The notes beneath the pieces were generated by a model. The model did not search any database, was not told where the DNA came from, and worked only from the letters and a program-made list of their open reading frames with translations. Source: Blasia pusilla (lineage: Eukaryota). From it: DNA of 64,000 bases. A program made the translations under genes and the position numbers. Position 1 is the stretch's first letter. Each line of letters starts with the position of its first letter. The DNA is taken from the NCBI GenBank assembly GCA_050084515.1, contig CM114271.1, positions 37,014,001 through 37,078,000 on the forward strand, in the 5' to 3' direction. Of the stretch, positions 1-44,638 are shown piece by piece.

Positions 1-970
1 AATTGGTAATGATTTTGGATGCGGTGAGTATTGAATTACGTTCACATTGTCCATGCTTATGGTAGGCTAACTTCTTACCATCCAAGCTATGAAGATATGC
101 TTATAATGGAATCAACGACGGATCCCTACTTACAACTTTAGATTCATTATGAATTTAGCTCTCACTCAAGATGATATACAACCATTGGTGTTGGTAAATA
201 GGATGGGCAAATAAGGACAATGTTACCTATAGTAGTGATTGTTTTGGTATCTCGAGCTTTTCTTCAAGGAGGACCTAATATAGTACGGGGTGAGCAAACA
301 CATATGCTATTGGAGCCCAACGTCAACAAGCAAGAGCGGTTTGTAAAGTCTCCATATATATGAAAGTGATGGCTATAATGTTAGAGGCATTATAGAGATA
401 TATGTAATATCATTTTGGATTCAATCATACTCATAGCTTTTGAGTATGATTTTTTTCTTTTATCTTTTAAAGAGAAAATATAATATTTAACATAGAGATA
501 AAACATATCATTTTTTGGTGTTAGAGGGGGTATGCCTTCAAGATTCCTTATATTAGAGGGTCATGATGGTATCATTTAGAAAGATTACTTGCAGTTTTTG
601 TACCATGTCATCTTCTCACTGATGGGAATATTGATCCTAGTTTGGTAGTGGTTCCAACAACCTTGAGATATATGCCATGTGGGTCTCCTAGGGAAACAAC
701 CATGATGTTAGTCCATGATTGATGTTGTCTTCATTGACATTTCCTCTTGATTTGGTTCCTTATGAACATTGGATTTATCCTAGATGTTCCAATTTTTTAT
801 GGGTGGATTACAAGATGAATCTTGATATTATAGATTACATGAAGGCGACTAATGGTCAATGCGATGACAAAACAACCAATATCCTCATCTTAGAACCAAT
901 AATATGCATAATATCTATATTTGTTTTGTAGACTATAGGAAGTTAAAGAGACCTAACCACAATTTAGTGG
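1..970 (+). mobile_element. Highly decayed relic of the MTase/PHD-type Gypsy-like element (3' part of MTase joined to integrase C-terminus/PHD and 3' UTR)
   Basis: Manual translation near 18-75 gives DAVSIELRSHCPCLW*ANF, matching DAASVGSRAHRPRLWWTNL. Near 310 it gives LEPNVNKQERF, matching VEPNADEREQAMGF. At 555-690 it gives EGHDGII*KD..PCHL..GNIDPSLVVVPTTLRYMPCG, matching the integrase tail/PHD start. AGAGACCTAACCAC at ~947 matches the 3' UTR motif GGGACCTAACCAC of the other copies. Confidence 0.7.
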
Positions 971-5714: not shown

Positions 5715-8700
5715 CGGTCCTAAGCTGAAAATCTATTTCAAGCAGTTCAGGTCCATCGCCTGACCCAAGACATGACTTCGTGATGCCTCTGATAGTGAAG
5801 GTATTGTCGTCACTCCGGTAGGGAATCCCATCGCTCGCTCTTGCCCATCGGCGTTGGGCTCCACCAACCTCTGTACTTGGTCATCCCAAACCAAGCCACG
5901 TCCGGCCTCCTTGAATGCATAGGAAGCAAGAAAACTCACAAATATGGGAAAGGCTTCCCGTGGCATGCCAATCCTGTTGACCACAGTCAACGGCGATCGA
6001 TCATCGTGCCTCACTACCTGGATCCAAAATAGAATCCACCAACAAATCGGAGGGGCGCTCCACTCTAGCATACGCCCTCGCAAAACCTCATGTGGGACCA
6101 AGTTGGTCCACCAAAGACGCGGGCGGTGTGCTCTAGAACCGCACTCATGCTTGCAAAACAACCGCTAAACCAGTGATGATCCCTCCAAAGAGATCCAGCA
6201 CGCGAATACCCTTCTTTGGGATGCACCACACAATCGGGGTGGTGTCCAAAGGGGTCATAGCAGCACTCGTGGCTACCTCGGGTTCCTCTGACCCGTCACG
6301 CTCTGAGCCCATATATGGCTCCCAAGTCTCCATCGTGACTACGATAGGACTCTTTGGCGCGGTTGTTGGTGGTTGCTATGCTGCAACCCCATCTCAGACA
6401 ACAGAAATCTCATCTCCACGTGAAGTACCCAGAACCACGCTCGATGTTGTGGCTACCATCTCCTGGCGTACCTACAAAACATCCCAAGAAGTTCAAGGAT
6501 GTCTCTTCCGATCACCCCTAGTGTGTCGATCTCCTCGGATCTCGCCCCCAGCCACTGCCTCAACCCCACCTCGTCTGCACATGCTCATCATATAAACGTC
6601 GAAGCTCCTCACTCGAGCCCCACAACGGCACCTCTCCTCCACGGAATGATGCAGTTATCATAAGACTCCTCTCCCTAGAAGTGGCAGGCACACGGATATC
6701 CTCTGCATGGACATGCCCCTCAATCAAATCAGAAGGCCACGTGATGGCACTGCTAAATGTTGCTAAAGTCGCCATCTCTCCAAGCCGTCGCTCTATCATT
6801 CCACCTATGAATTGAACAGGTAATGAATTCGTACATCACCGGACTGCCATCCTGGTCTGTAGGACGCTGACTCCTCCCAGTAATCTAGGGAAAATCCCAT
6901 TGGTTACAACATTGCTCCACCAACCAAAATGTTGTAGGACTCTACATCGATCACTATCGCCTTGGCTCGCACCACAGACTCATCTATAGGATGTCCTGGG
7001 TGAATCCTCACCACAATCTCATGTGGGGTGATATATTGTGTGGTACTCGCTCCATCCAAGGATGTTTGTATCTGGAATGGATAACGCTCCACATCGGCTC
7101 TCGTCAAGCACAATCCTCTGAATGACGCTTTCCCCAACATTAGGGGTTGCGCTCCTGAATCCAACAAGACGAGTTGCGGACTAAAAGCTCTACCTCTTGA
7201 ACTCACCAACTGAAAGATCTCTCCCCAGTTATCCAGTGAAACAACGCCACGAGAAGCCATGGCACGCTCTATCACGGCTCTAGCGAGCATCTTGGCCATC
7301 CTAGCAGCCGCAGGCCGCCATGAATCTGACGTGAACGGCCTGAGCGTCAAATCTAAGGGCAGGTCCATCACCTCCTCTCCAATCACCTCTAAACGTGATG
7401 CAAAAAATCCAACGCCACGCTCACATAGCATAGCGGCCAGTCGAAAAACCTCGGCGGGCGTACCTCCCAACGTCATAACATCGAAAGCAGAAAACAAAGG
7501 AGTGCGGTACACAACAGTGGCCGCCACCAACAACGTGCCCGACACATGCTCCTCCTAAGCATCAACAATAGGAGTCGTTGCACTCGTTTCTCCCATCGCC
7601 CTCCGTGCTTGCACACCAATAACATACCAACTCTCCCGAAACTCTGATGAGGACCCATCGATGGGGTCCTCATCACCTTAGACAATGTGGAAGACTGAGG
7701 AAGCCTAGTCTGTTTCTTGGCTTCCCCTGGATGTGGATCCAATTATGCAACTGCTCCACGTATCACAACTAGGCGGCCTCCATCTGGGCAACCCCGCACA
7801 TCCATCCAAGATCCTCCATATCTTTGGCTGCTCCATATGATGTCGATGCCACGGATACGACATCGAGTAATCTCAATGCCATAGCGGAAATCTGCTCATG
7901 TAGCTGCTGTATCTGAGCAACCATCCCAACCTCATGCTCGGCATCTCCCTCGACGCGTCTAGGTGGTGGGACTCTACCTCCTCCACGGGAAACTCCATCA
8001 CCCTAGCGGGCAACTCCAGCTCCTCGTTCCCCAACGGGACCACCTGGTGCATGATCTCTAGGCCCACCCGGACTGGCTACTCGCTCAGATGCCCTCTCCG
8101 GCCCTCACTCCGGACGTAACTCATGGTGTAAACTGAAACACCTGGTGTGTGTGTGACCATACCTCTGACAATAGTCACATTGATAACCTCCTCGTGTAGT
8201 ACCATCTCCTCCTCCATGTTGGGGCACATGTCCATGACCCTTATGAGTGCAATCATGCTGATGATGGGCTCCATCACATGACCAATAAGTAATCGTAGGC
8301 GGCTGCCGCATATGAAGAAGCAGGTCTTTGTGGCATGGCCTCCCGATATCCTCCTTGAGCTCATGGTGCCACAATCGACCTATCTCGGAGTCCACGTTGC
8401 TGCACTCGTGATGCAGGCAATCGTGACTGCTCTCGCCCAGAACCCATGGTGGCTACGCTCTCCTCCGCCATGTTGCGCTCAATGTTCTTGGCGGTCCTAA
8501 AAACATCTCTCAACGTAGATGAGGTTTTCATAAGAAGTACCCCCTCCCACAACCGTGTCCGCAGGGTCCTGTCCAGTATCCAACCCGTGTCCGTAGGATC
8601 CGGTCTATACCATGACTGGATAGCCTGAGCCTCTATCACCCCCTGAGGGACGTTGATCAACCGACGCAAGCGAGTGCAAGCCTCACGCAAACTCTCACCT

Positions 8701-24164: not shown

Positions 24165-27100
24165 TTTGTACAATTGTTGCGTTGGTGAGCCCCATACCTA
24201 CCGAGACGGTTGAGGCATCCTAAGTTGACAGGAGGAGAGCGGCGCCGGATACATTAGTTCCTGAGGAGTTATACGAGTTGCTTTGCATTTAGCATGCAAG
24301 ATTAGGGCACGGTGAAGGGTCCACGGATCCGCATTGAGTTGTCAAGTAACACGCCGATCTTCCGACGACCCTACAGGTATAGTGACATGGAGAGAGCTTT
24401 GATTCAGAGTAGGATCCAGGACTTGGTTGGAGCAGGACTAGTAGAGATGTCGCATTGAGAGTATACATCTGCCACTGTCATGCCTGCCAAGAAGGATGTG
24501 CATGGCGACTGGACGGATAGGCGGATGTGTGGAGATTACCGACGTATCAATCGGCAGACGAAATCGGACAGGTATGCCATGCCCATCCCTGAGGAGATCT
24601 TTGATATGATTGGGCATGCAAAGATCTTCAGTTTTTTAGATCTTCGAGCCAGATACCATCACCTGCCTATCAGATTGGAGGACAAGCACAAGACGGAATT
24701 TTGGGGCATCGATCCTCACGGGAAGGATTTCTTGTACCAGTGGTAAGGATATATTGATGACATCGTCATCTTTAGTGCCATGGTTGAGGAGCATGAGCGA
24801 CATCTAGAGGAGGTGTTTCGACGATTGTAGTTATATGGGCTGAAGCTACATCCAAGCAAGTGCAAGTTCTTCTACGACCAGATTGAGTACTTGGATCATA
24901 CGATATACCCAAGTGGCCTTGGTGTGCAATAAACAAAGGTAGAGGCTATTTCACGCATTCTAAGCCCTACAGATGTGAGTCAAGTTTGTGTATTCATGGG
25001 ATTGGCGAACTTCTATCAACGGTACATCAAGGGTTTCAGCTTGATTGCGAAGCCGCTGACCTTGTTGACCAAGGTGGATTAGGAGTGACACTGGGGGGAT
25101 GAGCAAGAGAGAGCATTTCAGATGCTCAAGGATGGGGCATCCTTTAGAGTTGCATACCGATTGGAGCATGTTGGGTGCTTGGAGCCGTGCTCACCCAACA
25201 TGACGATGATGGTAGAGAGTTCGTGGTGGCTTACGCTAGTTGCTCGAACAACGCTGCAGAGACGAAGCATAGTTTGTATGAGGGTAAGTGCTTGGCTGCA
25301 GTGTGGACTGTCGCACATTTTAGATGTTATCTATTCGGAAATCCCTTTACCATCATTATTGATCATTAGCCACTTAAGTGGTTGATGGAGTGCGACAAGC
25401 TTATAGGGAAGTTTGCGAGGTGGGCTCTTTTGTTGCAAGAGTATGACTTCCAGGTAATGCATAGACCTAGGATGCAGATGGTTTGAGCTATAACCCATGC
25501 CCGAGTCAGCGAGATGCGATTGGATCTCGTTGGCATGGTGAGAGTGATGAGGAGTTGATGCCAGGATGGCATGCGTTAGCCTATTTGGGCTTGTTGGCTA
25601 TAGAGAGCCAGATTGCTGAGACTTCGATGGCGAGGTCTGATGGAGAGTCCTTAGATCCAGAGGCTGGTGAGGAGACAACAGATGGCCGAGACTTTCACGA
25701 CGATAGAGTGGTATTGGAGTACTTGCGTACTTGCAGCGTCGCGAGCACAATGGGTGCTAGAGAGTGGGATCGGATCCTACAGCGAGCCAGATGATTCCGA
25801 TGGGAGGGGACACATGTGTTGCGAGTGTGGAAGGATAGTAGAATGCGTGTAGTGCCTCATCCTTTGCAGAGAGCACGTTTGGTGCGTCATGCCCACGAGG
25901 AGTTGGATCATTTTGGAGTGAAGCGGACGTACAGCTGGTCCAGATTCAGTATTGGTGGCGAGGCATGCAGATTGACGTTTAGCAGTTTGTTGCCAAGTGC
26001 ATGGTATGTGATCGAGTCTGAGCATCATTCAATGCTCGGACTCCACAGTTGCATCTACTTCCGATCATGGATTTAGGTTATAGATGGAGTTTGGATTTTG
26101 CAAGATCTTTGCCTTTGACAAAGCGCCATAGTCGTTATGTGTTGGTGATGGTCGAGCACTTCTCGAAGTGGATAGAGTTGGTTGCATTTCCTAACAAAGC
26201 GAGTGAGGGAGTAGCGTATGCCTTCCTAGATTGAGTGCTGAGGCATTACGGTGCACCAGTTGAGGTGTTGATAGACCAAGGTATAGAGTTTCGCAGGGGG
26301 TTTCAGGCCTTTTGTGATCAGGCACTGATGGACCACCGCACCACTTCACGAGATCATCTCGGGCGCATGGACTAGCGGAGAGGGTTGTGCAGACGGTGAA
26401 GAGAGGATTACGCAAGTATGGCTTGCAGAGAGGTCACCTAGGAGATTGGGACCTTCAATTGCTGTGGTTGGCGATGGGATACAGATTCAGCAGGCAGACG
26501 TCCTTGGCATCTTTCTCACCGTACTTGCTGCTTTAAGGCCATGAGCCAGATTTATATGAGGCCATTCATCGAGATGTTGGTGAGGTGTTGAACCTTGATG
26601 ACTCTGATGTATGGATGAGAGCATGTTCACAGAGGACTGAGTTGTTCCGGAGAGTGATGCCCATGGCGTTTGAGAACTTGGAGATTGCGCAACATCGGGA
26701 TACATTGAGATATGCGACTATTAGGGGGGGTGGTTATCGACCTACTATGCAGAGGTTTCATCAAGAAGATTATGTCTACTTGCAGTAGACGTCACGATCG
26801 ACGTTGGATGTGACTGCAGGGCGCACCATCTTGAGAGTGCGTGAGGTTTTACCACCAGGTGTTCTCTTATTGGAGGGATACGATGATATGGTTTGGAAGG
26901 ACCATATGCGTAACTGTGCGCCGTGTCATCTTCCGAACATTGAAAATACATTTGATTTGAGCTTAGCAGTAGTTTCTGCAGGCTTGCGATGTATGTTGTG
27001 TGGTTCTGCCCGTGGTGCAGCCACTATGCTAGTCTATAATGGATGTTCGAGAGGATGGCATATGGCATGCTTAACGCCATCTCTCACTAGGATTCCTCAA

Positions 27101-28069
27101 GGATGATGGATGTGTCCTAGATATACATAGAATAGGTAGTTCTACATTCCCACTTGTGTCTGTGATGATATGGATGACAAGAAGGCGACGAACGATGGGG
27201 CCACATGCGCACCCGATCTTCTTGCTCTTAGCGTCCGAGAGATGTATGTCATGGTAGGTAGGGATAGATGGCTATCTGGAGTTAGAGGGACCTAACCACT
27301 AGCTAAGCAGGAGATTGGAGATATTTTGGTACCTATTGTCTCGTTGTTTGGATGCCATGAGTTAGCATGGGATCGTGCGTGTTTGTGTGTGTGTTCGATG
27401 ACAACGATGTATGTTATGTAGTGATGTGTATGCGCACGACAACTGTCACATCTTTTAGGATAGATCGGTGAGATCTAGTAGAGCGCCTTTGCGAGTAGTG
27501 GAGGACAGGTTCAGGAGGTCGAGGATGACCTGCTGAGGCTCCGAGAAACTTGAGAGAGCAGGTTCCCCCTTCGTTTCGACTCATTTGGAGCCATATTGAG
27601 AAACTTACTATTTTAGGCAAGTACCATTTTGAGTATATGGTCGACTTTATATTTATGGTAAGTAGCCCTTTACCTCCTACACCAGGTCAAGAGCCAAGGG
27701 GGTGACTTGGGAGCATAGGTTACCATGGAGAGAGCTTGGGAGAGGGGAGGGGTATACCTCAAGGAGAGAGAGCTTGAGAGCTCATTCTCTCTTTGTTGAA
27801 CCTCTTGGCATGAGGCAGCGGAGCTATGGTCTTGCTTGCCTTGTGTGTGTAACCCAAGCCTCTCATTAGGAGAGTGGGTTTGGATTGACATTGAGAGAGA
27901 CATGTGAGTGTGCACACATTTGAGAGCTATGGTGTTGAGAGAGATTTCACCTTATTTTTATTGGAGATATTTTGGTACTTCTTGTCTTGTTGTTTGGATG
28001 CCATGAGTTAGCATGGGATCGTGCGTGTTTGTGTGTGTGTTCGGTGTAGCGATGTGTATGCGCACGACA
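24165..28069 (+). mobile_element. 3' half of family-1 element (RT, RNase H, integrase, PHD, Y-X-Y end)
   Basis: RT motifs RMCGDYRRIN and YIDD (~24750). RNase H VVAYAS..YEGKCLAAVW..DH. Integrase WSLDFA..VEHFSKW. PHD CMLCGS..CSRGWHMACL. Ends GCGCACGACA at 28069, followed by CTTG. Confidence 0.92.
27314..28069 (+). repeat. Family-1 split direct repeat 3' end: Y 27314-27441, X 27444-27960, Y 27961-28069
   Basis: Both Y copies run TTGGAGATATTTTGGTAC...GCGCACGACA. X is the reverse complement of 13087-13606 and shares the diagnostic ATTTCACCTTATTTT. Confidence 0.92.
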
Positions 28070-28073
28070 CTTG

Positions 28074-29584
28074 GAGCCATAATGGCTCCTTCCGTCCTTC
28101 CTTATTCCACGAGTTTGGGGCCATAATGGCTCCTTTCCTTCACTCCTACACCTTCGGAGCTCACCCAACTTCGTCTGCCCAATGTCCTGAATCTCCTCTC
28201 TCCCAATTCCACTTCAAGCACCTCTCTCTCTACCCAACGTCTCTCCACCTAAGTTGGGACGGTCGTGTCCTCTCTCTCTACGCCTTAATGTGGGTGCACC
28301 GCCCTATGCGGAGGACCCCCCTTCTGAACCTAGAGTGCTCGCTCCAGCTCCCGGCTCTTCTTCTCCCGACCTGCGGTTTCTTCTCCGTCTCCTTCAAACC
28401 CACTCCTTCCTTCCCGCGTCCTAGGGCACGACGCCCTATACACGGCTCGCATTACTAGAGCTCCGGGCTCCTTCCACCCTCGCGTGCCCCACTCCAAACT
28501 GGCGCGCTTGTCGCGTTGCACCTCCCAGCTCTACTGCTACCTCCTTGTGACACGGCTCCCTATGGAGTTGTGACCCTGTTTCTTTCCACTCCCATTTCCG
28601 TTGTCAACAAGGCCGTATCCCGGTGCTCGGCCATATCCTTCCCGGATGCGTTTCCTTTCCCACCCTCTCCTTGTGCGAGCCTTTGACCTACCTGCGGTGC
28701 CCAGCTGCTTAGATCTAAACCTCCCACATAACCTGCGTGACCCAACTCTAGTCGTCCTAGGAAGCTATTGCCTAGCCCTTACTAGCCCCCTTCATGGCGG
28801 CTGCTGTTCCCACAACTAATACTGTTCTCTCCCGACACTCACCGCTCACCCATCGATGATAGTCTTCGCGCTACACCTGAGCGCTACTACTGCTACACTC
28901 TGATGCTCTCCCCCATCAACCCTCACTGTCAAGATTCAAGAAAAATGGACAGTGGTTCCGCTCACGGACTCCCAAACATAAAAAAATGCCACCAACAACG
29001 TCAACCAACATCTCATGGACTTCCCAACCGAGGCAATTCGCTTGCCTACATGCAAACAACGAATTTCCACCAGCGCATTGACATCTTTCTCATGTTAAAT
29101 CAAGAGTAGTAAAAACGGCTCACCCGGCCTAAAACTCCACTCATGAATCTACATCGGCATATCGAACCACATCCACCCTCTACTATGAGGGAATCCAGAT
29201 GCTAGCACCCTAACTCCTACACACCCACACACGTCTATGCAAGAGAGGCGCTCCTAAGGCTCAACATGAGAAAGATGGCTTGAGAAAGCCATCCCTGTCA
29301 CTCTTATACCTTTGGGAAGAGCCAAAAAACTCTTCCCCCCAAAATAGCCCTCCCAACGGTAACCTACGTGCACAAGTTACCGGATGACCGTTGACTCGAT
29401 CAACGGGTCAGCTAAAGGACTAAAACAAAAATAGGGAAATCGCCATAAACGAAGTTCCCAACACAACAGACTTGTCGCCAACCTCATTTGACATCTAGGG
29501 ACAAAGTTACACCCAAACTGACCAACTGACTCACTATGCGGTCGACGTGATAGAACTCTACCTACGTCGAAATAAGATGTGACA
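28074..29584 (-). mobile_element. Family-2 element, 5' portion (X repeat 29093-29584 and purine-rich 5' UTR)
   Basis: Starts TGTCACATCTTATTTCG on the - strand, identical to 17750. The flank AACC at 29585-29588 is the reverse complement of GGTT at 18374-18377. Confidence 0.88.
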
Positions 29585-30000
29585 AACCGTATCTCGTCTT
29601 GCATATGATCTTTTCCACACCAGCCTCCACTATCCGAATTCGGTGATAGCTTGAGTTAAAGTCAATCCTTTTGAAATACTTAACATTTGACGATCTATCA
29701 AAGAGATCATCCATCCTTGGAAGAGGGTAATTATTATTTGAATTCATAGTCTCTCTATTGTGTGCCCAATAGTAAGTACATGGTCTCGACTTTCCATCCT
29801 TCTTCTTCACAAAGAGAATGGGCACTTCATGAGGCGACTTTTTGGTTCAAATATGCCCCCTTTCCAACAACTCACTAAACTGCTTCTTCAACTTCACAAG
29901 CTCAACTCGATTGAATCTATATGAAGCTTTCCTCAAAGATTTCAAATGTGGTTAAGAATCGGGAACTGCCTCACTCTTTTGATCGATTGTTCTATTTAAT
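29585..30000 (-). mobile_element. Decayed conventional Gypsy RT relic, 5' part
   Basis: ORF 29562-29825 reads PILFVKKKDG..YPLPRMDDLFD..KIICKTRYG. It is interrupted exactly where 18374 resumes (SFEFVVM). Confidence 0.85.
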
Positions 30001-33104: not shown

Positions 33105-33861
33105 TGTTGTGCGCATACACATCGTTGTCATCGAATACACACACAAACACACACGATCCCATACTAACTCATGGCATCCATACACAGAGGCGAGAAGTAC
33201 CAAAATATCTCCAATAAAGTAAGATCCAATCTCTCTCACAACACCATAGTTCTCACATGTGTACACTCTCACATGTCTCTCTCAATGTCAAACCAAACCC
33301 ACTCTCCTAATGAGAGGCTTGGGTTACACACACAAGGCAAACAAGACCATAGCTCCGCCGCCTCATGCCAAGAGGTTCAACAAAGAGAGAATGAGCTCTC
33401 AAACTCTCTCTCTTGGAGGTACCCTCCCTTCCCTCTCCCAAGCCCTCTCAACGGTAACCTATGCTTGCAGATCACCTCCTTGGCTCTTGACCTGATGTAA
33501 CGGGTCAAGGGAAACTTCCCAAAGTGGAAAGTCAACTATCCATAACATGGAAACTTACCTGAAATAGTAAGTTTCTCTATATGGCTCCATATGAGCCGAA
33601 ACGAAGGGGAAACCTGCTCTCTCAGGTTTCGCGGGGCCTCAACATGTCATCCTCGACCTCTTGGGCGTGTTCTCCACTACTCGTGCAGACGCTCTGCTAG
33701 ATCCCACCGATCTATCATAACAGTTGTGATAGCTATCGTGCGCATACACATCGCTACACAACATACATTGTTGTTATCGAATACACACACAAACACACAC
33801 GATCCCATGCTAATTCATGGCATCCATACATAGAGGCGAGAAGTACCAAAATATCTCCAAT
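33105..33861 (-). repeat. 3' split repeat block: Y 33734-33861, X 33215-33731, Y 33105-33215
   Basis: GTGCGCATACACATCG...CCAAAATATCTCCAAT occurs twice, flanking a copy of 43595-44112. Confidence 0.93.
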
Positions 33862-34047
33862 CGCCCCCCTAGCTGGTGGTTAGGTCCCTCTAACTCCAGA
33901 TAGCCATCTATCCCTACCTACCACGACATACATCTCTATGACGCTAAGAGCATAAAGCCCGGGTGCTCATGTGGCCCCATTGTTAGTCGCCTTCCTGTCA
34001 TCCATGTCACAGAAAAATTCGGAATCAAAACCTATCTAGTATCTCCT

Positions 34048-35330
34048 CTATGTACATCGGGGACACATCCATCGTCCCCGAGGAACCCTAGTGAGAGGTG
34101 GCGTCAGACATGCCATATGCCAACCTCTCGAACATCCATCACACACTAGCATCGTGGCCGCACCACAAGCAGAACCACACAACATACAACGCAAGCCTGC
34201 AGGAACTACTTCTAAGCTCGGATCTAATGTACCATCAATTTTAGGAAGGTGACATGGCGCACAATTACGCACATGGTCCTTCCATACCATACCATCGCAT
34301 CCCTCCAGCAAGAGAACACCGGATGGCAAAACGTCATGTACTCTCAGAATAGTGTGCCCTACAGTCACATCCAACGTCGTTGGTGCCGTCTGCTGCAAGT
34401 AGACATAATCTCCCTGATGAAACCTCCGGATAGTTGGTCGATAACCACACTCCGAATAGTCGCATACCTCAACGTATCTTGATGCTGTGCAATCGTCAAG
34501 TTCTTGAATGCCATGGGCATCACTCTCCAAAAAAACTCAGCCTTCTGAGAACATGCTCGTATCCATACATCTGGGTCATCAAGGTCCAGCACCTCACTAG
34601 CATCTCGACGAATGGCCACAGGTAAATCTGGCTCTCGGCCATAAAGTAGCAAGTACGGTGAAAAAGACGCTAAGGATGCCTACCTGCTGAATCTGTATCC
34701 CATCGCCAACCATGGCAACTGGAGGTCCCAATCTCCTAGGTGACCTCTCTGCAATCCATACTTGCGTAAACCCCTCTTCACCATCTGCACAACTCTCTCC
34801 GCTAATCCATCCGCCTCAGGATGATCTCGCGAAGTTGTGCGGTGGTCGATCAACGCCTATTCACACAAGGCCTGGAACTCACCGTGAAACTCGGTACTCT
34901 GGTCTGTCAACACCTCAGCCGGTGCGCCATAATGACTCAAGACTCGATCTAGGAAGGCATACGCTACTCCATCACTCGCTTTGTCAGGCAATGCAACCAA
35001 CTCGATCCACTTCGAGAAGTGCTCGACCATCACCAACACATAACGACTGTGACGCTCCGTCAAAGGCAAAGGTCCTGCAAAATCCAAACTCCATCTATAC
35101 CCTAAGCCCATGATCGGTAATGGATGCAACTGTGGAGTTGGAGCATTGAACGATGCTCGGACCCGATCACACACCATGCACCTGGCAACAAACTGATGAA
35201 CGTCAGTCTGCATGCCTCGCCACCAATACTGAATCAGGAGCAAGCTGTACGTCCGCTTCATCCCAAAGTGACCCAACTCCTCATGGGCATGCTACACTAG
35301 TCGTGCTCTCTGCGAAGGATGCGACACTAC
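34048..35330 (-). pseudogene. DDE integrase with C-terminal PHD finger (PHD ~34051-34195)
   Basis: HHCC motif HAHEELGHFG..CMVC, then WSLDFAGP, VLTDQ and GLAERVVQ. C4HC3 PHD CMLCGSACGAATMLVCDGCSRGWHMACLTPPLTRVPRGRWMCPRC. Confidence 0.93.
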
Positions 35331-35699
35331 GCGTACTCTACCATCCTCCCAAACCCTCAAAACACGTGTCCCCTCCCAACGAAACAGTCTGGCTCGATGT
35401 AGGATCCGATCCCGCTCTCTAGCACCCACGGTGCTCATAACGCTGCCAGTACGAAGGTACTCCAAGACTACTCCATCATCATGAATATCTCGGCCACCTG
35501 TCGTCTCCTCATTGGCCTTGGGATCCAAGCATTCTCCACTAGATCTCGCCATCGAAGTCTCCACACTCTGGCTCTCCATAGCCAACATGCCTAAATAGGC
35601 TGACGCGTGCCATCATGGAATTGACTCCTCATCACTCTTTCCATGCCATCGAGCTCCAGTCGCATCTCGCTGACTCGGGCATGGATTACAACTCAACCC

Positions 35700-37050
35700 A
35701 TATGCATCTTGGTTGAGCATCCCAGGTCTATGTACCACCTGAAAATCATACTCCTACAACAACAAAGCCCATCTCGCAAGCTTCCCTGTAAGCTTGTCGG
35801 ACTCCATCAACCACTTCAGTGGTTGATGATCAGTGATGATGGTAAAGGGGTTGCCAAATAAATAACACCTGAAATCCACGACAGCCCATACTGCAGCCAA
35901 GCACTCACCCTCATACGAGCTGTACTTCACCTCTGCGGCGTTGTTCGAGCGGCTAGCGTAAGCCACCACGAACTCTCTACCCTCATCATCATGTTGGGTG
36001 AGCATCGCTCCAAGCCCCAACATGCTCCAATCTGTGTGCAACTGGAAAGGACGCCCCCTTATCGGTCTCCTCAAGATCGGCGCAGACGTCAACTTGTCCT
36101 TGAGCAACTGAAATGCTCGCTCTTGCTCATCCCCCCCAGTGCCACTCGTGATCCACCTTGGTCAGCAAGGTTAGCGGCTTTGCAATCGAACTGAATCCTT
36201 TGACGTATCGCCGATAGAAGTTCACCAATCCCATGAATGCGCGAACACGACTCACATCTATAGGGCGTGGAATGCGTGAGATGGCCTCTACCTTTGTCAG
36301 CTAAACACCAAGGCCCCTTGGATATATCGTATGACCCAAGTACTCAATCTGGTCGTAGAAGAACTTGCACTTGCCTGGATGTAGCTTCAGCCCATGTAAT
36401 TGCAATCGTCGAAACACCTCCTCTAGATGTCGCTCATGCTCCTCAAGAGTGACGCTAAAGACTACGATGTCATCAATATAACACCTAGCAAAATCCAGAC
36501 CAGCCAAGATCCTATCCATGAACCTCTAAAACTCAGCCGGGCCATTCTTTAACCCAAATGGTAAGAACCGCCACTGGTACAAACAATCTTTCCCGTGAGG
36601 ATCGATGCCCCAAAATTCCTTCTTCTGCCTATCCTCCAATCTGATAGGCAGCTGATGGTATCCGGCCCGCAAATCCAATGAACTGAAGACCTTTGCGTGA
36701 CCAATCGCATCAAAGATCTCCTCTTGTTGGTGGGCATGGCATACCTATTGGACTTTGTCTTGCAAAGGCTCGATTGATAGGTCGATAATCCCCACACATC
36801 CGCCTATCCGTCCAGTTGCCATGCACATCCTTCTTGGCGGGCATGTGGTTGAGTGTGAATGCATACTCCCCATCGACATCTCCACTAGTCTGCTCCGACC
36901 AAGTCATGGATCCTACCTCGTATCGAGCCCTCTCCATATCATGATTGTGGCAAAGGGTTTTGAAGATCGACGTATCACTGACAACTCAATGCGGATCCCC
37001 GGTCCCTTCAAAGATACCCAAATCCTCCATGCTAAATGAAGCGGCTACCT
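35700..37050 (-). pseudogene. Ty3/Gypsy-type reverse transcriptase and RNase H
   Basis: RMCGDYR, CYIDDIVVFS, KCKFF..YLGH, LHTDWSMLGLGAML, YEGECLAAVWAV and TDHQPL. Confidence 0.95.
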
Positions 37051-37479
37051 ATAACTCCTGAGGAACTGATGTATCCGGCCCCGCTCTCCTCATGTCAACT
37101 TAGGGACCATATTTGGCTCCCAAGTCTCCATCGTGACTACGGTAAGACTTTCCGACGAGGGTATCGTGGGTTCAAAAACACTCGGCCGCTCTCCTACAGC
37201 CAACTACAAACTTTCATCTCCTCCACGTGCAGTGCTCGGAACCACGCTCGATGTTGTGGCTATCATCTCCTGGCGTACTTGCAAAACATCCCAACAAGTC
37301 CAAGGGTGTCTCTCCCGATCTCCTCTCTGGTGTAGAACTCCTCGGCTCTCGCCCCCAGCCACTACCTCCACCATCTCGGTAGGCATGGGGCTACCAATTG
37401 CAATTTGTATGTGGTAGTGATCTATGTCGCGATCTCATCATAGACTTAGCCCACTCCCAACAAGAGGATCCATGTCGAG

Positions 37480-39424
37480 TATTTCAGGTCCATCGCTCTG
37501 ACCCAAGACATGACGCTTGTCGTTGATACCTCGACATTGCCCTAGCGATCTGCCGTCACTCATGAGGGAAATCCCATCGCTTGCTCTCTCTCGTCGGCGT
37601 TGGGCTCCACCAACCGCTGAACGTGGTCATCCCAAACCAAGCTGGGACTGGCCTCCTTGTATGCATAGGAAGAAGGAAAACTCACAAACATGGGCAAGGC
37701 TACCCGCGGCTTGCCTACCCTGTTGACCACAATCAACGGTGGTCGATCATCGTGCCTCACTACTTGTTATCGACGACATGGATCAAAAATGGAATCCACT
37801 AACAAATGGGAGGGGCCCTTCACTCTCGCATATGCCCTTTGTAACACCGTATGTGTCGCGACCCTCATGACCAAACAAGTGCCAAGCGGAACATCGGAAC
37901 ATTAGCGGGCTCACGCTAAGATGGTTTGCGCGTTGGAGTTGTCTCAAAGAGGAGACAAGAGATGAGACGCGAGCGAGAAGCCGCGTTTCAGATGTGATGG
38001 TCGCGACTCGGAAACCTGGACCAAACGCGGAATGAGACTTGAAAGAAGTCGAGTCTAGGAAGTGGGTTGCCAAAGGAAAGATCCGGACTTGGAACGCCAC
38101 TTGTGTTTGAGAGTTTCCGACTGTATTTATGGCCATAACTTTTAGCGCCAAGATGCATTTTGAGCAAATAAGAGTGCGTTGGAAAGCTTATGGAGAGCCG
38201 GTTCAAACGCACCAAAGATCGCTGCAAACGCATAAGCAGAGACCGAGATACGACCCGAAAACGACTGTAAGTGGAGTCGGGTCGAGGGCCACAATGAAGG
38301 GCCCGAACCTCTTTTCCCAAAGGGGAGGGGTTATTGGAGAACTCCAGAAGTACTAGTAAGGGGGAAGGTCTCCGAGAGTGCTTGGAACCCAAACCCCACT
38401 TTGGGCCATGGGGCGCTCAAGGGCATGGAACGGAACGCGAGTTTGGGCGTTGGGTTGGAGAACCTGCACCAAGTCTATTGAGGCGATTTTAGACATCCCT
38501 CTTGGATTTCACGCCGCGACTCAATTACTTGGGTCTCGGTTCGGAACTCACACGAGGACCGTTGAACAGTTGGGATTGCTAGGCGTGTAAGTGCCGTTTC
38601 AGATCCCTGGACTAACCAGGAAGTCTGTTCCAAGTCTTGAAGGACTTGCCATGTGTTGGGAGCTAGGAATTAAGGAAGGTTGAGCTTGATGAGACGCCGA
38701 GTTGAGGACTCGGTGGGTTGGAACGCCGGTTGGCCAAACCCGACTAACGAGAGTGCGTGTTTGGGTGCAGATCGGCGATGAGTTCGTGACCTACTGAACA
38801 CACGCTTCCGCAACACTAAAGATTGACGTTCAAGGAGAGTAGGGGCGCGACAGTATGGGGCACCAAGTTGGTCCACCATAGACGCGGGCGGTGGGCTCTA
38901 GAACCTACACTCGCCGCATCCAAGAACACTGCTTGGCCGATCTAGGCACGCACCTGATGAGCACTCGTCACCATCCGTGACTTGGAGTCTCCTAAGATTG
39001 GCACATTCTCCGGAATGTAGGCTGGAGATCGAGACTCGTGCTCTTGCAACTGCCGTAAGACCCTCAACATCTCCCAAAACAACAAGGACCGAGTGTCAGC
39101 CAACCCGCTGCCTCGTCTAGCACTCGATTGGCCTTGACATGGCCAACCGGCAATGACCAAATCAATGGTCCCTTCCTGCTCTAAGTCATGCGCCCCCAAC
39201 AACGAAATATCCCTCTGTAGGGAACTCTGGTACCCTGTACCGCGGACGTAGACAATAAGTCGGGAAAACGAGGGGCGAATCGCTGCGCCACATGTCATAG
39301 TGAGACGCGCCTCGCAACATCATCACTCTCCACATACAGGTACTGTTGCACTCGCACTCCTACCTGCAAAACAGCAGCTAACCCGGTGCTAATCCCTCCA
39401 AAGAGATCTAACACTCGAATACCC
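37480..39424 (-). pseudogene. DNMT3-like C5 cytosine methyltransferase domain, interrupted by a solo LTR
   Basis: Motif I IRVLDLFGGISTG (~39385-39424), II YLYVE, III DI, IV IDLVIAGWPCQGQS (~39125-39165), V RSLLFWE, VI ENV (~39003-39011), VIII AHRPRLWWTNL (~38865-38900), IX EREQAMGFP (~37565-37595), X RHVLGQ (~37500). Confidence 0.92.
37854..38852. mobile_element. Solo LTR (999 bp) of an unrelated family inserted in the MTase domain
   Basis: Termini TGTCGCG...CGCGACA with a 5-bp TSD GTATG at 37849-37853 and 38853-38857. No coding motifs recognised inside. Confidence 0.88.
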
Positions 39425-39849
39425 TCCTCTGGGATACACCACAAAATGGGTGTGGTATCCAAGGGTGTCATCGTTGCACTCCCTGCTACCTCGTTTTCTT
39501 CAGACCCATCACGCTCCGGTGCAAACGCCTTGCTCCACACGGTCTGCACGTGCTCATCTGCCAATCGTCGAAGCTCCTTAGTCGAGCCCCACAATGGCAC
39601 CTCTCCTCCACGGAATGATGCGGCTACCATAACACTCCTCTCCATAGAAATGTCAGGAATGGGAGTATCCTCTGCATGGACATGTCCCTCAATCAAATCA
39701 CTAGGCCAAGTGATGGCACTGCTAAATGCTACTAAGGTCGCCACCTCTCTTGGCCGTCGCTCGATCACTGCACCTATGAATCGAATGGGTAATGAGCTAA
39801 GGCGCCCATCACGTGACTGCCATCCTGGTCTGTAGGACGCTGACTCCTC

Positions 39850-42361
39850 CTAGTAATCCAGGGAAAACCCCATCGAGTATAACACTGCTCCACCAACCAA
39901 GACGTCGTAGGACTCTGCATCAGTCACTATCGCCTTGGCTCGCACCACGGACTCATCTGTAGGATGTCTCGGGCGAATCCTCACCACGACCTCCTGTCGG
40001 GTGATGTACTGTGTGGTACTCGCTCCACCCAAGGATGTCTATATCTGGAATGGACAACGCTCCATATCGGCTCTTGTCAAGCCCAATCCTCTGAATGACG
40101 CTTTCCCCAACATCAGGGGTTGCGCTCGTGAATCCAACAAGACGCGCAGCGGACTAAAAGCTCTACCTCCAAGACTCACCAACTGGAAGACCTCTCCTCG
40201 GTTATCCAACAACACAACACCATCTAGACGCTCTATCGCGGGTCTAGCGGGCATCTCCGCCATCCTAGCAGCCGCAGCCTGCCATGAATCTGACGTAGAC
40301 GGCCCGAGCATCCTCTCCAAGGGCAGGTCTATCACCTCTGAACGTGATGTAGGAATTCCAACTCCGTGCACACATAGTGAAGCAGCCAGCCAAAAAGCCT
40401 TGGCGGGCATACCCCCCAACGTCATAACATCGGAAGCAGAAAATAAAGGAGTGCGGTACAAAATGGTGGCTGCCCCCAACAACGTGCTTGATACATGTCC
40501 CTCATGGGCATCAACAATAGGAGTCGTTGCACTCGCTTCTCCCATTGCCCTCCATGTCTGCACACCAACAACATTGCCAACTCTCCATGAACTTTGATGA
40601 GGACCCATCAATGGGGTCCTCATCGCTTCGGACGACGTGAAAGATTGAGGAAGCCTAGTTTGTTTTCTGGCTTACCCTCGCTATGGATCCAACTCTGCAG
40701 CTGCTCCACGCATCACAACGGTGGCGGCCTCCATCTGGGCAACCCCGCACATCCAACCAGGATCCTCCATATCTCTAGTTGCTCCATATGATGTCGATGC
40801 CACGGATCCGGCATCGAGTAACCTCAATATCATAGCGGCAATCTGTTCATGTAGGTGCTGTATCTGAGCAGCCATCCCAGCCTCACATCCGATGTCTCCC
40901 TCGGCGCGTCTAGGTGGTGGTACTCTACCTCCTCCACGGCAACTCCACCACCCAATCGGACAGCTCCAGCTCCTCGTCCCCTAACAGGACCACCTGGTGC
41001 ACGATCTCTAGCCCACCCGGACCGGCTACTCGCTTTGGTGCCCTCTCTGGCCCTCGGTCCGGACGTAACTCAGGATGTAAACCGAAACACCTTGCACGTG
41101 TATGACCATACTTCTCACAATAGTCACACTGATAACCTCCTGGTGCAGCACCATCTCCTCCTCCATGCTAAGGCACACGTCCGTGACCCTGACGAGTGCA
41201 ATCGCGCTGATGATGGACTCCACCATATGACCAACAAGTAATAGTAGGGGGCTGCTGTTGAGCCGCATATGAAGGCGCAAGTCTCTGTGGCACGGCCTCC
41301 CAGTATTCCCCCTAAGCTCGTGGTGCCACAGTCGACCTATCCCGGAGTCCACGTTCTTTGCCGCGTGTGGTGCGACCAATCGTCGGATCGCTCTCTTGAG
41401 AACCCATGGTGGCTACGCTCTCCTCCGCCATGTTGCGCTCAATGTTCTCGGCGCTCCTAAAAACATCTCTCAATGTAGGGGAGGTGTTCATAAGAAGCAG
41501 CCCCTCCCGCACCCGTGTCCGCAGGGTCCGGTCCAACATCGCGTACCATGACTGGATAGCCTGAGCCTCTGTCACCCCCTGAGTGACGTTGATCAACCAA
41601 CACAAGCGAGTGTTAGCCTCATGCAAACTCTCACAAGGGCGCCTCTGGAAGTCGTGGATGCTCCGCAACTTCTCCGTTTGTACCCCATGGTAGCTCGCCC
41701 TCAACTCAGCAAAGAACTCAACCACAGGGTTGAACCTGGGACCAACCCGACTAGACAGTACAAGTGCTCAAGTGCAAGTGACCCCTCCTAAAATGTCACT
41801 AGTAGAAGAGGAAGTAGCCTCTCATGACTCCTCCTCCTCATCTGGGAATATCTCCGTCCATGACACATAATGTGGGTCATAGTAGAGCCTCCACGCCTCG
41901 ATCTCACGTGCATATCTCTGAGAGAACTCATGGTAATCGTCTATGGGTGCCTCCTCTAAATGCTGGAACATACCGTTCCATGCTATAAATGGGTTGAACT
42001 CTCTAGAGTTCCTTGCCCGTTGGGAGTCGCACCAACTCCTAAACTCTACTATGAAATCGTGCAACTCAATCATACCTACTGCACCTGAAAACCTGCGCGG
42101 TCCTCTACCCCGGTCGTCCATCTCGTACACCCAACTGGTAGGACCACTCACAATGTGTGGCGATATGCTCACAAACTCCTCTACACCCTCCCCCTTGTCT
42201 GATGATGACACAGAAGGAGGTCGAGGTGGTCCCTCACGTGGAGACCCTCGGAACCTCGCGCCACTCCGCGTAAAACCTCTAGAGCTACTCTTAGGTTCAT
42301 CACCTCGCCTCTCAAAGTGCTGAACAGAAGCTGTGATGACACTCGTGCCCCTCTCACCCAA
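39850..42361 (-). pseudogene. Gag (with zinc knuckles) and aspartic protease of the full-length element
   Basis: Gag-like ORFs 41822-42361 and 41312-41725. Knuckle region ~41085-41275. Protease VLLDS(R/G)AQ and YDVLVG. Confidence 0.85.
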
Positions 42362-43594
42362 TCACTCTCGCCTTGCGAGTAATCCCTCAATCACTCATCC
42401 CAAACATGCGGCACTCGATCTACACTCTTCCTCCCCGAGACGTGTAACGTGCTGCAACAAGCGGCGTGGTGCGGAAAATCGACCAGGCTATCATCTCATT
42501 GACAACCTACCCTCAACTCCGGACATCCCTAAACCACATACATAAATGATGTCTATGTCCCCTAAACCACATACATCACAACATAGCTGAACAAATGTCA
42601 ATGAAATCAAAACTCAAACACCATAACAATCAGGAGGTCATCGCGCCAAAATCACGGTGTGATTCAGCGGAACGGTTCATGACAAAAGCTGCGATGGGAC
42701 GGTGGCTCCTCAATCAAAACAAAGCATGTGGTGGCGGCGCCAAGTCGGCGTGGCAAGAATCAACACGCGTCGTGGAAGACCCTCCACTCAACATAGCGGA
42801 AATCAAAATGGCACCAAAGGATGGACAACGCGACGACGCGGTGGCGGCCAAAACAAAGCATGTGGTTGTCGAGAATGATGGCAAGCAAAGGATGGACAAC
42901 GCACGATGAACCGTTGACGGTGACGGTTGACCGTTGATGGTGACGGCCGACCGGTGACGGTGACAGTTGACCATTGATGGTGATGGTTGACCATCGATGG
43001 TGGACCATTGACGGTGAATATGACGGCGATGGCTGCCGCCGGCGTGGTGGCTGGTTTAGGGTTTGAACAATTTAACCATAAAAATCTCCTAGCAATGGCA
43101 GTTTTGCAAGATTGACCATAACTTTTTGCTCGCAACTCCAAATTGCGCACTGCTTTTTGTATAGCGTGCACAGCTTCACGATCTACGACAATGTCAAAAA
43201 ATATTTAGAATTGAACATTTCAGTAAAAATTGACAGGGACTGTCGTAAATCCCAATGTCTCTTTCTCTTACACAAAATTTGGCATCGCTTCCGCGCTGAT
43301 TTCTCCCAACGAAAATGTAAAACCTATAAAAATACAAATCAGCAAGCTACATGGTGCTCCTGAGAGCATTGGCATGGGGCAACCCGCCCCCATAATCAAT
43401 CTCTATCAGAAACTGGGCAGCGCTTCCCTGCGCCACTCTTCCACACGAAAAATCGGCAAATGCAAAAAACAATCAAAGCAGCCCTTGCTCCGGTGAGCAC
43501 TCCCATGAGACGCTGAACGGGGAACACGGTCCCCAACCTGCAAAAATAGTGAGTGACCAGCGAGCTCCCCCATGAAGCTCTATCACTCTCTCTT

Positions 43595-44112
43595 TGTAAA
43601 GTAAGATCCAATCTCTCTCACAACACCATAGTTCTCACATGTGTGCACTCTCACATGTCTCTCTCAATGTCAAACCAAATCCACTCTCCTAATCAGAGGC
43701 TTGGGTTACACACACAAGGCAAGCAAGACCATAGCTCTGCCGCCTCATGCTAAGAGGTTCAACAAAGAGAGAATGAGCTCTCAAGCTCTCTCTCTTGGAG
43801 GTATACCCCCTTCCCTCTCCCAAGCCCTCTCAACGGTAACCTATGCTCGCAGGTCACCTCCTTGGCTCTTGACCTGTTGTAACGGGTCAAGGGCCACTTC
43901 CCAAGTGGAAAGTCAACTATTCCCAATATGGAAAGTTACCCGAAATAGTAAGTTTCTCTATATGGCTTCAAATGAGCCGAAACGAAGGGGAAACCTGCTC
44001 TCTCAGGTTTCGCAGGGCCTCAACATGTCATCCTCGACCTCCTAGGCCTGTCCTCCACTACTCGTGCAGACGCTTTGCTAGATCCCACCGATCTATCCTG
44101 ATAGTCGTGACA
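43595..44112 (-). repeat. 5' X repeat (LTR-like, 518 bp, TG...CA)
   Basis: Matches 33215-33731. On the - strand it is followed by AAGAGAGAGTG rather than a TGG-type PBS. Confidence 0.93.
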
Positions 44113-44638
44113 ATTTTGTGCATCTCTAGTTTGGACTCTTCTTTTCTATATCCACCTTGTTTGTATCATCAATCTTTAATCCCTCATTTTATCTACTATT
44201 GTCATCCATCCTTGACTCAAGTGCACCCCTTTGTCTTTTGATATGTTTCTAGTTCCATTAACATAGTATAGCCATATGTCCATCCTTTTATCGGGCTATC
44301 ATTGCATCATTTCTTTTGTCTATCTGTCCATCATATTTGTGAATTTTTTTCAAAATGTTCTGCTAGATCCCACCGATCTATCCTAACAATCGTGACAATT
44401 TTGTGCATCTCTAGTTTGGACTCTTCTTTTCTATATCCACCTTGTTTGTATCATCAATATTTAATCCCTCATTTTATCTACTATTGTCATCCATCCTTGA
44501 CTCAAGTGCACCCCTTTGTCTTTTGATATGTTTCTAGTTCCATTAACATAGTATAGCCATATGTCCATCCTTTTATTGGGCTATCATTGCATCATTTCTT
44601 TTGTCTATCTATCCATCATATTTGTGAATTTTTTTCAA
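44076..44638. repeat. Tandem duplication, ~285-bp unit spanning the element terminus and flank
   Basis: TGCTAGATCCCACCGATCTATCC...GAATTTTTTTCAA starts at both 44076 and 44361. Confidence 0.92.

What the first reader, a model, noticed from the sequence alone, without database searches (positions are those of the whole stretch)
34048..34200. PHD finger at the integrase C-terminus, in the position where chromoviruses have a chromodomain
Seen: an intact C4HC3 finger ends the polyprotein here, at 26985-27130, and in relic form at ~665-790. Known: PHD fingers of the form MLxCDxCxxxxHxxCLxPPLxxxPxGxWxC (BHC80/AIRE/CHD4-like) typically bind unmethylated H3K4. Animal DNMT3 uses an ADD domain to read the same mark. 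Inference: the element pairs a chromatin reader with a DNA-methylation writer and may target H3K4me0 (repeat-rich) chromatin. This fits two of the three TSD-defined insertions being inside other TEs.
Basis: partly seen in the sequence, partly recalled or inferred. Interest (0 to 1): 0.75.

Follow-up and report, generated by a model that had tools for sequence, protein, structure and literature searches.

The report
Histone-reading finger on retrotransposon integrase
A very abundant, still-transcribed jumping gene of a liverwort-like plant ends its integrase in a real histone-reading finger that probably steers new copies away from active genes, while its DNA methyltransferase sits on the other side of a leaky stop codon, so the two are not a simple reader-writer pair.

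Summary
The PHD finger at 34054-34188 (-) is real and intact. It follows an SH3-like integrase tail and ends the RT-RH-integrase frame of a Gypsy-DNMT3 element (KnitGypsy-Dnmt3 kind). The copy at ~26990 is broken, not intact; the relic at ~600-790 is real. The family fills about 18% of this liverwort-like genome, has split direct repeats and 4-bp target duplications, and is transcribed in sense. The finger best matches the ATXR5/KDM5-PHD1 class. It keeps the H3A1/R2 anchors and has no aromatic cage, so binding of unmethylated H3K4 is plausible but untested; several acidic contacts are lost. Insertions lie in repeats at 22 of 46 flanks, against 32% background, 6 of 24 for Copia and 14 of 19 for a chromovirus: a mild bias at most. 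The DNMT3-ADD analogy fails: a conserved amber stop with a TMV-type read-through context separates DNMT from RT-integrase-PHD. PHD-bearing Gypsy elements and Gypsy-DNMT3 are both in print, and this scan noted the same architecture in other genomes. The leaky stop, genome share and expression were not found in my searches. New variant of a known kind.

The parts
34054..34188 (-). PHD finger, C4HC3, all eight ligands present; stop codon at 34048-34050
   Evidence: structure model and fold search
34240..34428 (-). SH3/Tudor-like beta-barrel, integrase C-terminal domain (approximate limits, from model residues 30-92)
   Evidence: AlphaFold2 with 42 sequences, pLDDT 86.6; Z 7-8.4 to SH3-like barrels
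34450..35291 (-). Integrase H2C2 and catalytic core; frame broken in this copy near 34450-34480
   Evidence: PF17921, PF00665; tblastn; one frame in L018
35754..36850 (-). Reverse transcriptase and RNase H, with frame breaks in this copy
   Evidence: PF17917/PF17919; tblastn to P0144 and P0091
37140..37200 (-). Place of the family's amber read-through site between DNMT and RT; lost by a short deletion in this copy
37854..38852 (.). Nested solo LTR of a chromovirus family (5-bp duplication GTATG), interrupting the DNMT
   Evidence: chromodomain in a full copy
37460..39420 (-). C5 cytosine methyltransferase (Gypsy-DNMT3 type); motifs I 39411, IV 39151, VI 39025, VIII 38893
   Evidence: PF00145 E 1.3e-10; 46% identity to K. 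nitens KFL_009030040 over one segment
39778..40281 (-). Aspartic protease region
   Evidence: tblastn to P0144 958-1125, whose protease is 1004-1095
40925..42361 (-). Gag region with zinc knuckle near 41085-41131 (assignment weak)
   Evidence: knuckle hits below cut-off; Retrotrans_gag E 0.007 in copy L050
43597..44112 (-). Terminal repeat A1, begins TGTC; no tRNA primer site seen behind it
33734..33861 (-). Repeat B1, followed by a 2-nt spacer and A2
33215..33731 (-). Repeat A2, 93.4% identical to A1
33105..33215 (-). Repeat B2, 3' end of the element; AAAT duplicated at both ends of the element
26936..27127 (+). Second copy's linker and PHD, broken (two ligands lost, internal stop)
600..790 (+). 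Decayed relic of integrase tail, linker and PHD
   Evidence: tblastn E 6e-9 to 6e-12
6360..6390 (-). Read-through site (TAG CAA CCA) kept in another, rearranged copy in the window

Best explanation
The finger is the chromatin tether of the integrase of a green-lineage Gypsy clade. One RNA is read as an abundant Gag-protease-DNMT protein; occasional read-through of an amber stop adds RT-RNase H-integrase-PHD. After processing, the PHD rides on the integrase and binds the free N-terminus of histone H3 (A1, R2, unmethylated K4) in ATXR5 fashion, probably weakly. Because most nucleosomes lack K4 methylation, the result is avoidance of K4-methylated promoters and genes rather than homing to heterochromatin. 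The DNMT works separately, most likely on the element's own new DNA. Shown: domain order, intact ligands, conservation, stop and its context, expression, 4-bp duplications. Inferred: read-through itself, processing, H3 binding, K4 preference, any effect on targeting, DNMT activity.
For: PHD found by Pfam in 87 of 91 long homologues; pN/pS 0.25 over 33 PHD codons between two subfamilies (only two copies in the smaller group). Gap-free match to ATXR5 PHD and KDM5B PHD1: P60/G62, D41 and the hydrophobic V23, L37, L39 places of ATXR5 are P, G, D, L, M, V here; L325, D328, P347, G349, W351 of KDM5B are kept. The place two before His is Gly in 72 of 77 rows (this element and 76 homologues), Trp in 1, so no K4me3 cage (cage position recalled; cage residues named). 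Complex fold with the genome's own H3 1-30: 0.44, best control 0.02, runs agree in at least 97% of contacts, partner pLDDT 56-57; the tool calls this weak (mark reached by 51 of 78 solved and 2 of 108 mismatched pairs; at 0.60 or under by 5 of 78 solved and all 4 mismatches that passed), and like complexes are solved. Flanks in repeats 22/46 vs 242/760 background. TAG in 28 of 28 matched sites, CAACCA after it in 26; stop plus CAR in 33 of 40 related loci, full CARYYA in 8; consensus UAG-CAR-YYA from PMC3542737.
Against: KDM5B D308 and E321 places are Ala, ATXR5 D44 place is Ser; D308A and E321A weaken KDM5B binding about 6- and 12-fold. Net charge of the finger is 0 to +4 in the 11 closest proteins, but negative in 54 of 66 more distant ones. 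Nesting does not differ from pooled PHD-less controls (20/43, p 1.0), and selection after insertion can give the same bias. Background tiles come from only 40 regions, so the p of 0.03 is overstated. DNMT and RT share one frame in P0144 and K. nitens P0091, so the stop is not universal in the clade.
Confidence: 0.58

Rival explanations
1. Reader-writer pair: the PHD brings the DNMT to H3K4me0 chromatin, as ADD does for DNMT3, and directs insertion into repeats.
For: Both domains occur in one protein in many relatives: 24 of 91 carry PF00145, 22 of them with PF00628. An uncleaved read-through product would carry both. Flanks are enriched in non-family repeats, 15/39 vs 125/643.
Against: An in-frame stop, RT and RNase H lie between them here. 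DNMT changes place in the clade while PHD stays behind the integrase tail. Even spread along C1, KS p 0.39 for 100 copies. Nesting lower than the chromovirus control, 48% vs 74% (p 0.10).
Confidence: 0.1
2. In this streptophyte branch the finger has drifted from histone reading: the basic, terminal PHD binds DNA or the nucleosome surface, or reads only H3A1/R2 without K4 discrimination, and adds general chromatin affinity.
For: Loss of the acidic loop in all 11 close proteins and in 27 distinct fingers from related loci (acidic at E321 place 0/27, at D308 place 1/27). PHD pN/pS 0.25 against 0.04 for the tail. Insertion bias is mild.
Against: D328/D41, P, G, W and the hydrophobic strand are almost invariant. 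ATXR5 reads K4me0 without an Asp.
Confidence: 0.22
3. The finger has a structural or intasome role (dimer contact, protein partner), and insertion patterns come from integrase sequence preference plus selection.
For: A weak palindromic site preference exists: G/C at +2 in 36/46, A/T at +3 in 37/46 outside the duplication, mirrored on the left in 11/16 and 12/16. ATXR5's PHD also has a non-targeting role.
Against: The conserved residues are those of the H3-binding groove; the position matches that of targeting chromodomains.
Confidence: 0.1

Closest known systems
KnitGypsy-Dnmt3 / streptophyte Gypsy-DNMT3 (de Mendoza et al. 2018, PMC5890265; passages, sections 9 and 10, and a supplement search seen)
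   Same: DNMT before RT in a Gypsy pol; DIRS-like repeats with Gypsy domains; groups with K. nitens KFL_009030040 in a 17-row branch (SH-aLRT 91, quick tree).
   Different: The word PHD is in neither main text nor the 3 supplements held as text (figures not visible, and the K. nitens record is partial and ends before the PHD place). Host is a land plant; about 18% of the genome; transcribed; leaky stop between DNMT and RT.
Gypsy-7a_cRei and REM1 of Chlamydomonas (PMC9940879, passages seen; REM1 paper not read)
   Same: Gypsy Gag-Pol with a PHD finger, proposed to limit harmful insertions; 2.6-fold intergenic bias reported. A Chlamydomonas protein is among the homologues (P0023).
   Different: No DNMT described for it. 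Chlorophyte relatives mostly carry a long tail behind an acidic PHD; here the finger is terminal and basic.
Chromoviruses (MAGGY and others; cited in 10.1101/2021.11.30.470311 section 10 and PMC6673714 passages)
   Same: Reader domain behind the integrase SH3-like tail.
   Different: No chromodomain; no tRNA primer site seen; split repeats; weaker nesting than a chromovirus of the same genome.
ATXR5 and ORC1b PHD, KDM5 PHD1 (PMC5499861 and PMC4225485, passages and section 11 seen)
   Same: Same spacing, A1/R2 anchors, no aromatic cage.
   Different: Second R2 Asp and the K4/T3 acidic residues are missing; net positive charge.
EpiLTR / DAM-LTR (bioRxiv 10.64898/2026.05.21.726589, passages seen; supplements closed)
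   Same: LTR elements joining methyltransferases with a reader.
   Different: Reader is a chromodomain there and DNMT is of the DNMT4-related kind; PHD is not mentioned as a domain in the main text.

Membership tests
PHD finger (PF00628) | C4HC3 ligands and score over cut-off | tested here: met
   41.9 bits vs 24; fold Z 9.8, rmsd 1.1, 51 aligned
H3K4me0-reading PHD (BHC80/AIRE/KDM5 mode) | Acidic residue before Cys1 that binds K4 | tested here: not met
   Ala at -4, Leu at -2; acidic at -4 in 2 of 11 close proteins
H3K4me0-reading PHD (ATXR5 mode) | Backbone K4 pocket with hydrophobic lining; P/G pocket for A1; Asp pair for R2 | tested here: inconclusive
   Lining and P/G kept, D41 kept, D44 is Ser; complex fold weak
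H3K4me3-reading PHD | Aromatic cage with Trp two before His | tested here: not met
   Gly in 40 of 42 copies and 27 of 27 related fingers; position recalled
Any H3-reading PHD | Measured binding to H3 peptide | not testable with these tools
   needs ITC or peptide array
Gypsy-DNMT3 (KnitGypsy-Dnmt3 kind) | C5 DNMT domain within a Gypsy PR-RT-RH-IN order | tested here: met
Gypsy-DNMT3 (KnitGypsy-Dnmt3 kind) | DIRS-like repeat structure | tested here: met
   A1 ... B1 A2 B2 in the window and in 22 of 30 loci for the 3' part; L219, L267
Gypsy-DNMT3 (KnitGypsy-Dnmt3 kind) | DNMT falls in the Dnmt3 clade | tested here: inconclusive
   similarity to the K. nitens domain only; no DNMT tree built
Gypsy-DNMT3 (KnitGypsy-Dnmt3 kind) | DNMT in the same ORF as pol | tested here: not met
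   in-frame stop in 28 of 28 matched sites; joined only if read through
Chromovirus | Chromodomain at the integrase C-terminus | tested here: not met
   no Chromo hit in P0001; hit in the control L206
Phygy | NCGN target preference (PMC6317226) | tested here: not met
   0 of 46 target sites
DIRS/Ngaro | Tyrosine recombinase, no DDE integrase | tested here: not met
   rve integrase and 4-bp duplications, exact in 14 of 17, one mismatch in 2; feature recalled and
Type I (TMV) read-through signal | UAG-CAR-YYA in frame between two ORFs | tested here: met
   26 of 28 here; 8 of 40 related loci complete, 33 of 40 stop+CAR; read-through itself not measured

The most novel reading that the evidence does not exclude
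A plant Gypsy lineage that fills about a fifth of a liverwort genome uses a PHD finger as a K4-methyl-avoiding integration tether, overproduces its own DNA methyltransferase on the Gag side of a leaky stop to pre-methylate its new DNA, and replicates through a circle whose palindromic end-to-end junction (kept as B1/A2) is opened by a DDE integrase: a third targeting mode beside chromodomains and MBD, joined to a replication cycle between DIRS and LTR elements.
Probability: 0.2. Interest if true: 0.8.

Novelty: new variant of a known kind. Interest (0 to 1): 0.5.

Why it matters
PHD fingers on retrotransposons have been proposed as targeting modules for twenty years, but I saw no binding or targeting test in the papers read. 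This family offers thousands of insertions, live transcription and an internal chromovirus and Copia control in one small plant genome, so the question becomes testable. It also shows methyltransferase-bearing retrotransposons as a main genome component of a land plant, against the statement in PMC6338049 that they are absent from land plants such as tracheophytes. The leaky stop predicts many DNMT molecules per integrase, which bears on whether the enzyme methylates the element's own DNA or the host.

Tried and rejected
Single-sequence AlphaFold2 model: pLDDT 36.6, discarded. BLASTP of the tail against the chromovirus tail: no similarity, so the SH3-like call rests on the model and fold search; no retroviral integrase tail was among the 50 listed rows. 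First flank test on 16 copies: 4 of 16 in repeats against 27% background, no signal; a signal appeared only with 46 flanks and a larger library. DNMT label on the integrase tree: 20 changes against 22.1 shuffled, uninformative because many records are partial or split (the careful tree did not finish). Run search: no RNA holder listed in the index; raw-read runs were then laid. Paper searches without a description of this architecture: Selgy+PHD, split direct repeats+Gypsy+PHD, Dnmt3+bryophyte, liverwort+PHD finger, Ty3+PHD domain+bryophytes, CARYYA+retrotransposon, read-through+methyltransferase. The library lacks most subscription papers, Repbase and theses; bioRxiv supplements (Grau-Bove Table 6, the DAM-LTR preprint) were closed and may list these fusions. 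Phygy, chromovirus and DIRS/Ngaro membership rejected (see tests).

Full report
Observation. The minus-strand frame 34048-34536 ends in a complete C4HC3 finger, one residue and a stop. Pfam PF00628 scores 41.9 bits against a cut-off of 24. The copy near 26990-27127 has lost two ligands and holds a stop, so it is not intact; the relic at about 600-790 is homologous (E 6e-9) but decayed. Of 35 full-length finger matches in loci not chosen by protein likeness, 14 keep all eight ligands without a stop.

The element. On the minus strand, 44112 to 33105, the order is repeat A1, gag, protease, C5 methyltransferase (PF00145, split by a nested chromovirus solo LTR at 37854-38852), RT, RNase H, integrase, an SH3-like barrel, PHD, then repeats B1, A2, B2. 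The ends read TGTC...ACA and AAAT is duplicated. Of 17 further copies with both ends examined, 14 have an exact 4-bp duplication, 2 one mismatch and 1 none. The B1/A2 junction is the two ends joined over a 2-nt spacer; the form GACA-GC-TGTC is a palindrome, and 595 exact matches to a 24-nt junction pattern exist. No tRNA primer site follows A1. This is the repeat plan and domain set described for KnitGypsy-Dnmt3 (PMC5890265, section 9). An integrase tree groups the element with a Coleochaete protein (96) inside a 17-row branch with the K. nitens record (91; quick tree, PHD excluded, 90 rows).

Host and abundance. PsaF of this genome matches entry 9lut best, then 8htu, 6l35 and 7ksq; from recall these are a liverwort and a moss, so the host is a liverwort-like land plant. 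The family covers 17.7% of 40 evenly spaced 8-kb samples (bootstrap 11-25%); first-look candidates number 11,188 for the PHD region and 10,195 for the DNMT (not copy numbers). A1/A2 identity is 96.1-99.8% in 14 copies and 93.4% in the window's copy. Single-base deletions are frequent (6-47 per 4.1 kb) and crowd in G/C runs, so many frame breaks may be assembly errors; this is not proven.

Expression. In three RNA runs of one study, about 5,000 of 10-12 million reads lie on 33880-43590 at 85% likeness. They are strongly stranded in the direction expected for sense RNA in the usual library type, cover gag to PHD, and skip the nested solo LTR, which has near-zero RNA depth although it is as deep as the rest in DNA. 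Most reads are under 95% alike, so they come from other copies, not this one.

Spread of the finger. A search with the integrase tail and PHD found 91 long proteins among 618 candidates; 87 carry PF00628 and 24 carry PF00145. Named ones come from Chlamydomonas, Pleodorina, Haematococcus, Tetrabaena, Cymbomonas, Coleochaete and Klebsormidium. 297 clusters at 50% identity match at E up to 1e-30. The query held the finger, so these counts lean towards it. In the 11 closest proteins the finger is terminal and neutral to basic; in most of the 66 others it is acidic and followed by a long tail (15 proteins missed the pattern). Between two subfamilies here pN/pS is 0.25 for the finger and 0.04 for the tail (small sample).

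What it may read. The alignment-based model (pLDDT 86.6) matches ATXR5 PHD-H3 best (Z 9.8, rmsd 1.1, 51 residues without gaps), then DPF2, UHRF1 and ORC1b with unmodified H3. In ATXR5, K4 is held by backbone carbonyls of V23 and G31 in a pocket with L37, A1 by P60 and G62, R2 by D41 and D44 (PMC5499861, passages). Here these places are L, A, M, P, G, D and S. Against KDM5B PHD1 (gap-free), L325, D328, P347, G349 and W351 are kept, D308 and E321 are Ala (PMC4225485, passages and section 11). There is no Trp for a K4me3 cage. A complex fold with the genome's own H3 tail scored 0.44 against a best control of 0.02, which the tool rates weak and possibly from memory of solved complexes. I put H3-tail binding at about 0.7 and a K4me0 preference, given binding, at about 0.8.

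Where copies sit. With one repeat library and one rule, 3' flanks lay in repeats for 22 of 46 copies of this family, 6 of 24 Copia ends, 14 of 19 chromovirus ends and 242 of 760 background tiles (region bootstrap 24-40%; chromodomain confirmed). The family is above background (p 0.03, overstated since tiles are not independent), between the two controls (p 0.08 and 0.10) and equal to them pooled. The controls come from C1 only and are not matched by age. An earlier test on 16 copies showed nothing. One hundred copies are spread evenly along C1. This fits avoidance of active chromatin or selection after insertion, not homing to repeats.

Between DNMT and RT the family has an in-frame TAG in 28 of 28 matched sites, followed by CAA CCA in 26, which is the TMV-type read-through consensus UAG-CAR-YYA (PMC3542737, passage). 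Motif distances from gag to RT are mostly in one frame. In 40 related metagenome loci examined of 77 returned, the stop before RT is followed by CAR in 33 and by full CARYYA in 8; many of these loci are not independent. L207 shows two clean frames, protease-DNMT and RT-RH-IN-PHD, around TAG CAG TTA. The window's copy has lost the site; another copy keeps it at about 6380. So DNMT belongs to the abundant upstream product and the finger to the rare read-through part. P0144 and the K. nitens record have no stop there. The K. nitens DNMT gave no methylation in yeast, which its authors call inconclusive.

Known and new. PHD fingers in Gypsy polyproteins are reported (Gypsy-7a_cRei, PMC9940879; called widespread in PMC6673714; fusions surveyed in 10.1101/2021.11.30.470311), and so is Gypsy-DNMT3. 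Three earlier notes of this scan describe the same architecture in other genomes. My searches found no account of the finger on Gypsy-DNMT3, of its dominance and expression in a land plant, or of the leaky stop; figures and closed supplements could hold part of this. Verdict: a real feature, a new variant of a known kind, interest 0.5.

Noticed in passing
L033, L035, L043, L207; window ~6380 (-): Conserved amber stop with TMV-type read-through context between DNMT and RT, placing the methyltransferase on the Gag side.
   Followed up: yes
window 33731-33737; L208:8228, L219:10340: Internal B1/A2 junction is a palindromic end-to-end joint with a 2-nt spacer, kept in distant relatives; no tRNA primer site. 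Suggests a circle opened by the DDE integrase; priming is unexplained.
   Followed up: partly
P0027, P0088, P0024, P0075 (tails behind the PHD): Chlorophyte-type relatives have DNMT between RNase H and integrase and a ~330-aa tail with amino-methyltransferase-like motifs (PF02086 below cut-off in two; DP-F/W-x-G-x-G in about 18, SPPF in 3): possible DNMT + PHD + amino-MTase elements.
   Followed up: partly
L031-L050 pol regions: Many single-base deletions in G/C runs despite young repeats: probable long-read consensus errors; C-to-T changes highest in CHG (8.2%) and CG (5.0%).
   Followed up: partly
window 35929-37015: RNA reads in all three runs skip about 1,085 nt of RT: a transcribed deletion derivative elsewhere in the genome.
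   Followed up: no
window 54127-59430: Young Copia element with an 848-aa open frame and near-identical LTRs; used as control.
   Followed up: partly
window 44076-44657: 285-bp tandem duplication that includes the first bases of repeat A1 and its flank.
   Followed up: no
window 5731-13606, 15222-18373, 24219-28069, 29097-29585: Four further partial or rearranged copies of the same family in the window.
   Followed up: partly
L061, L062 (G000:C1 60.92 and 60.95 Mb): PsaF is present twice with equal score in inverted orientation about 38 kb apart: recent duplication or assembly artefact.
   Followed up: no
P0123: A member of a close cluster is labelled as an uncultured cyanobacterial protein, probably plant DNA in a metagenome bin.
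   Followed up: no
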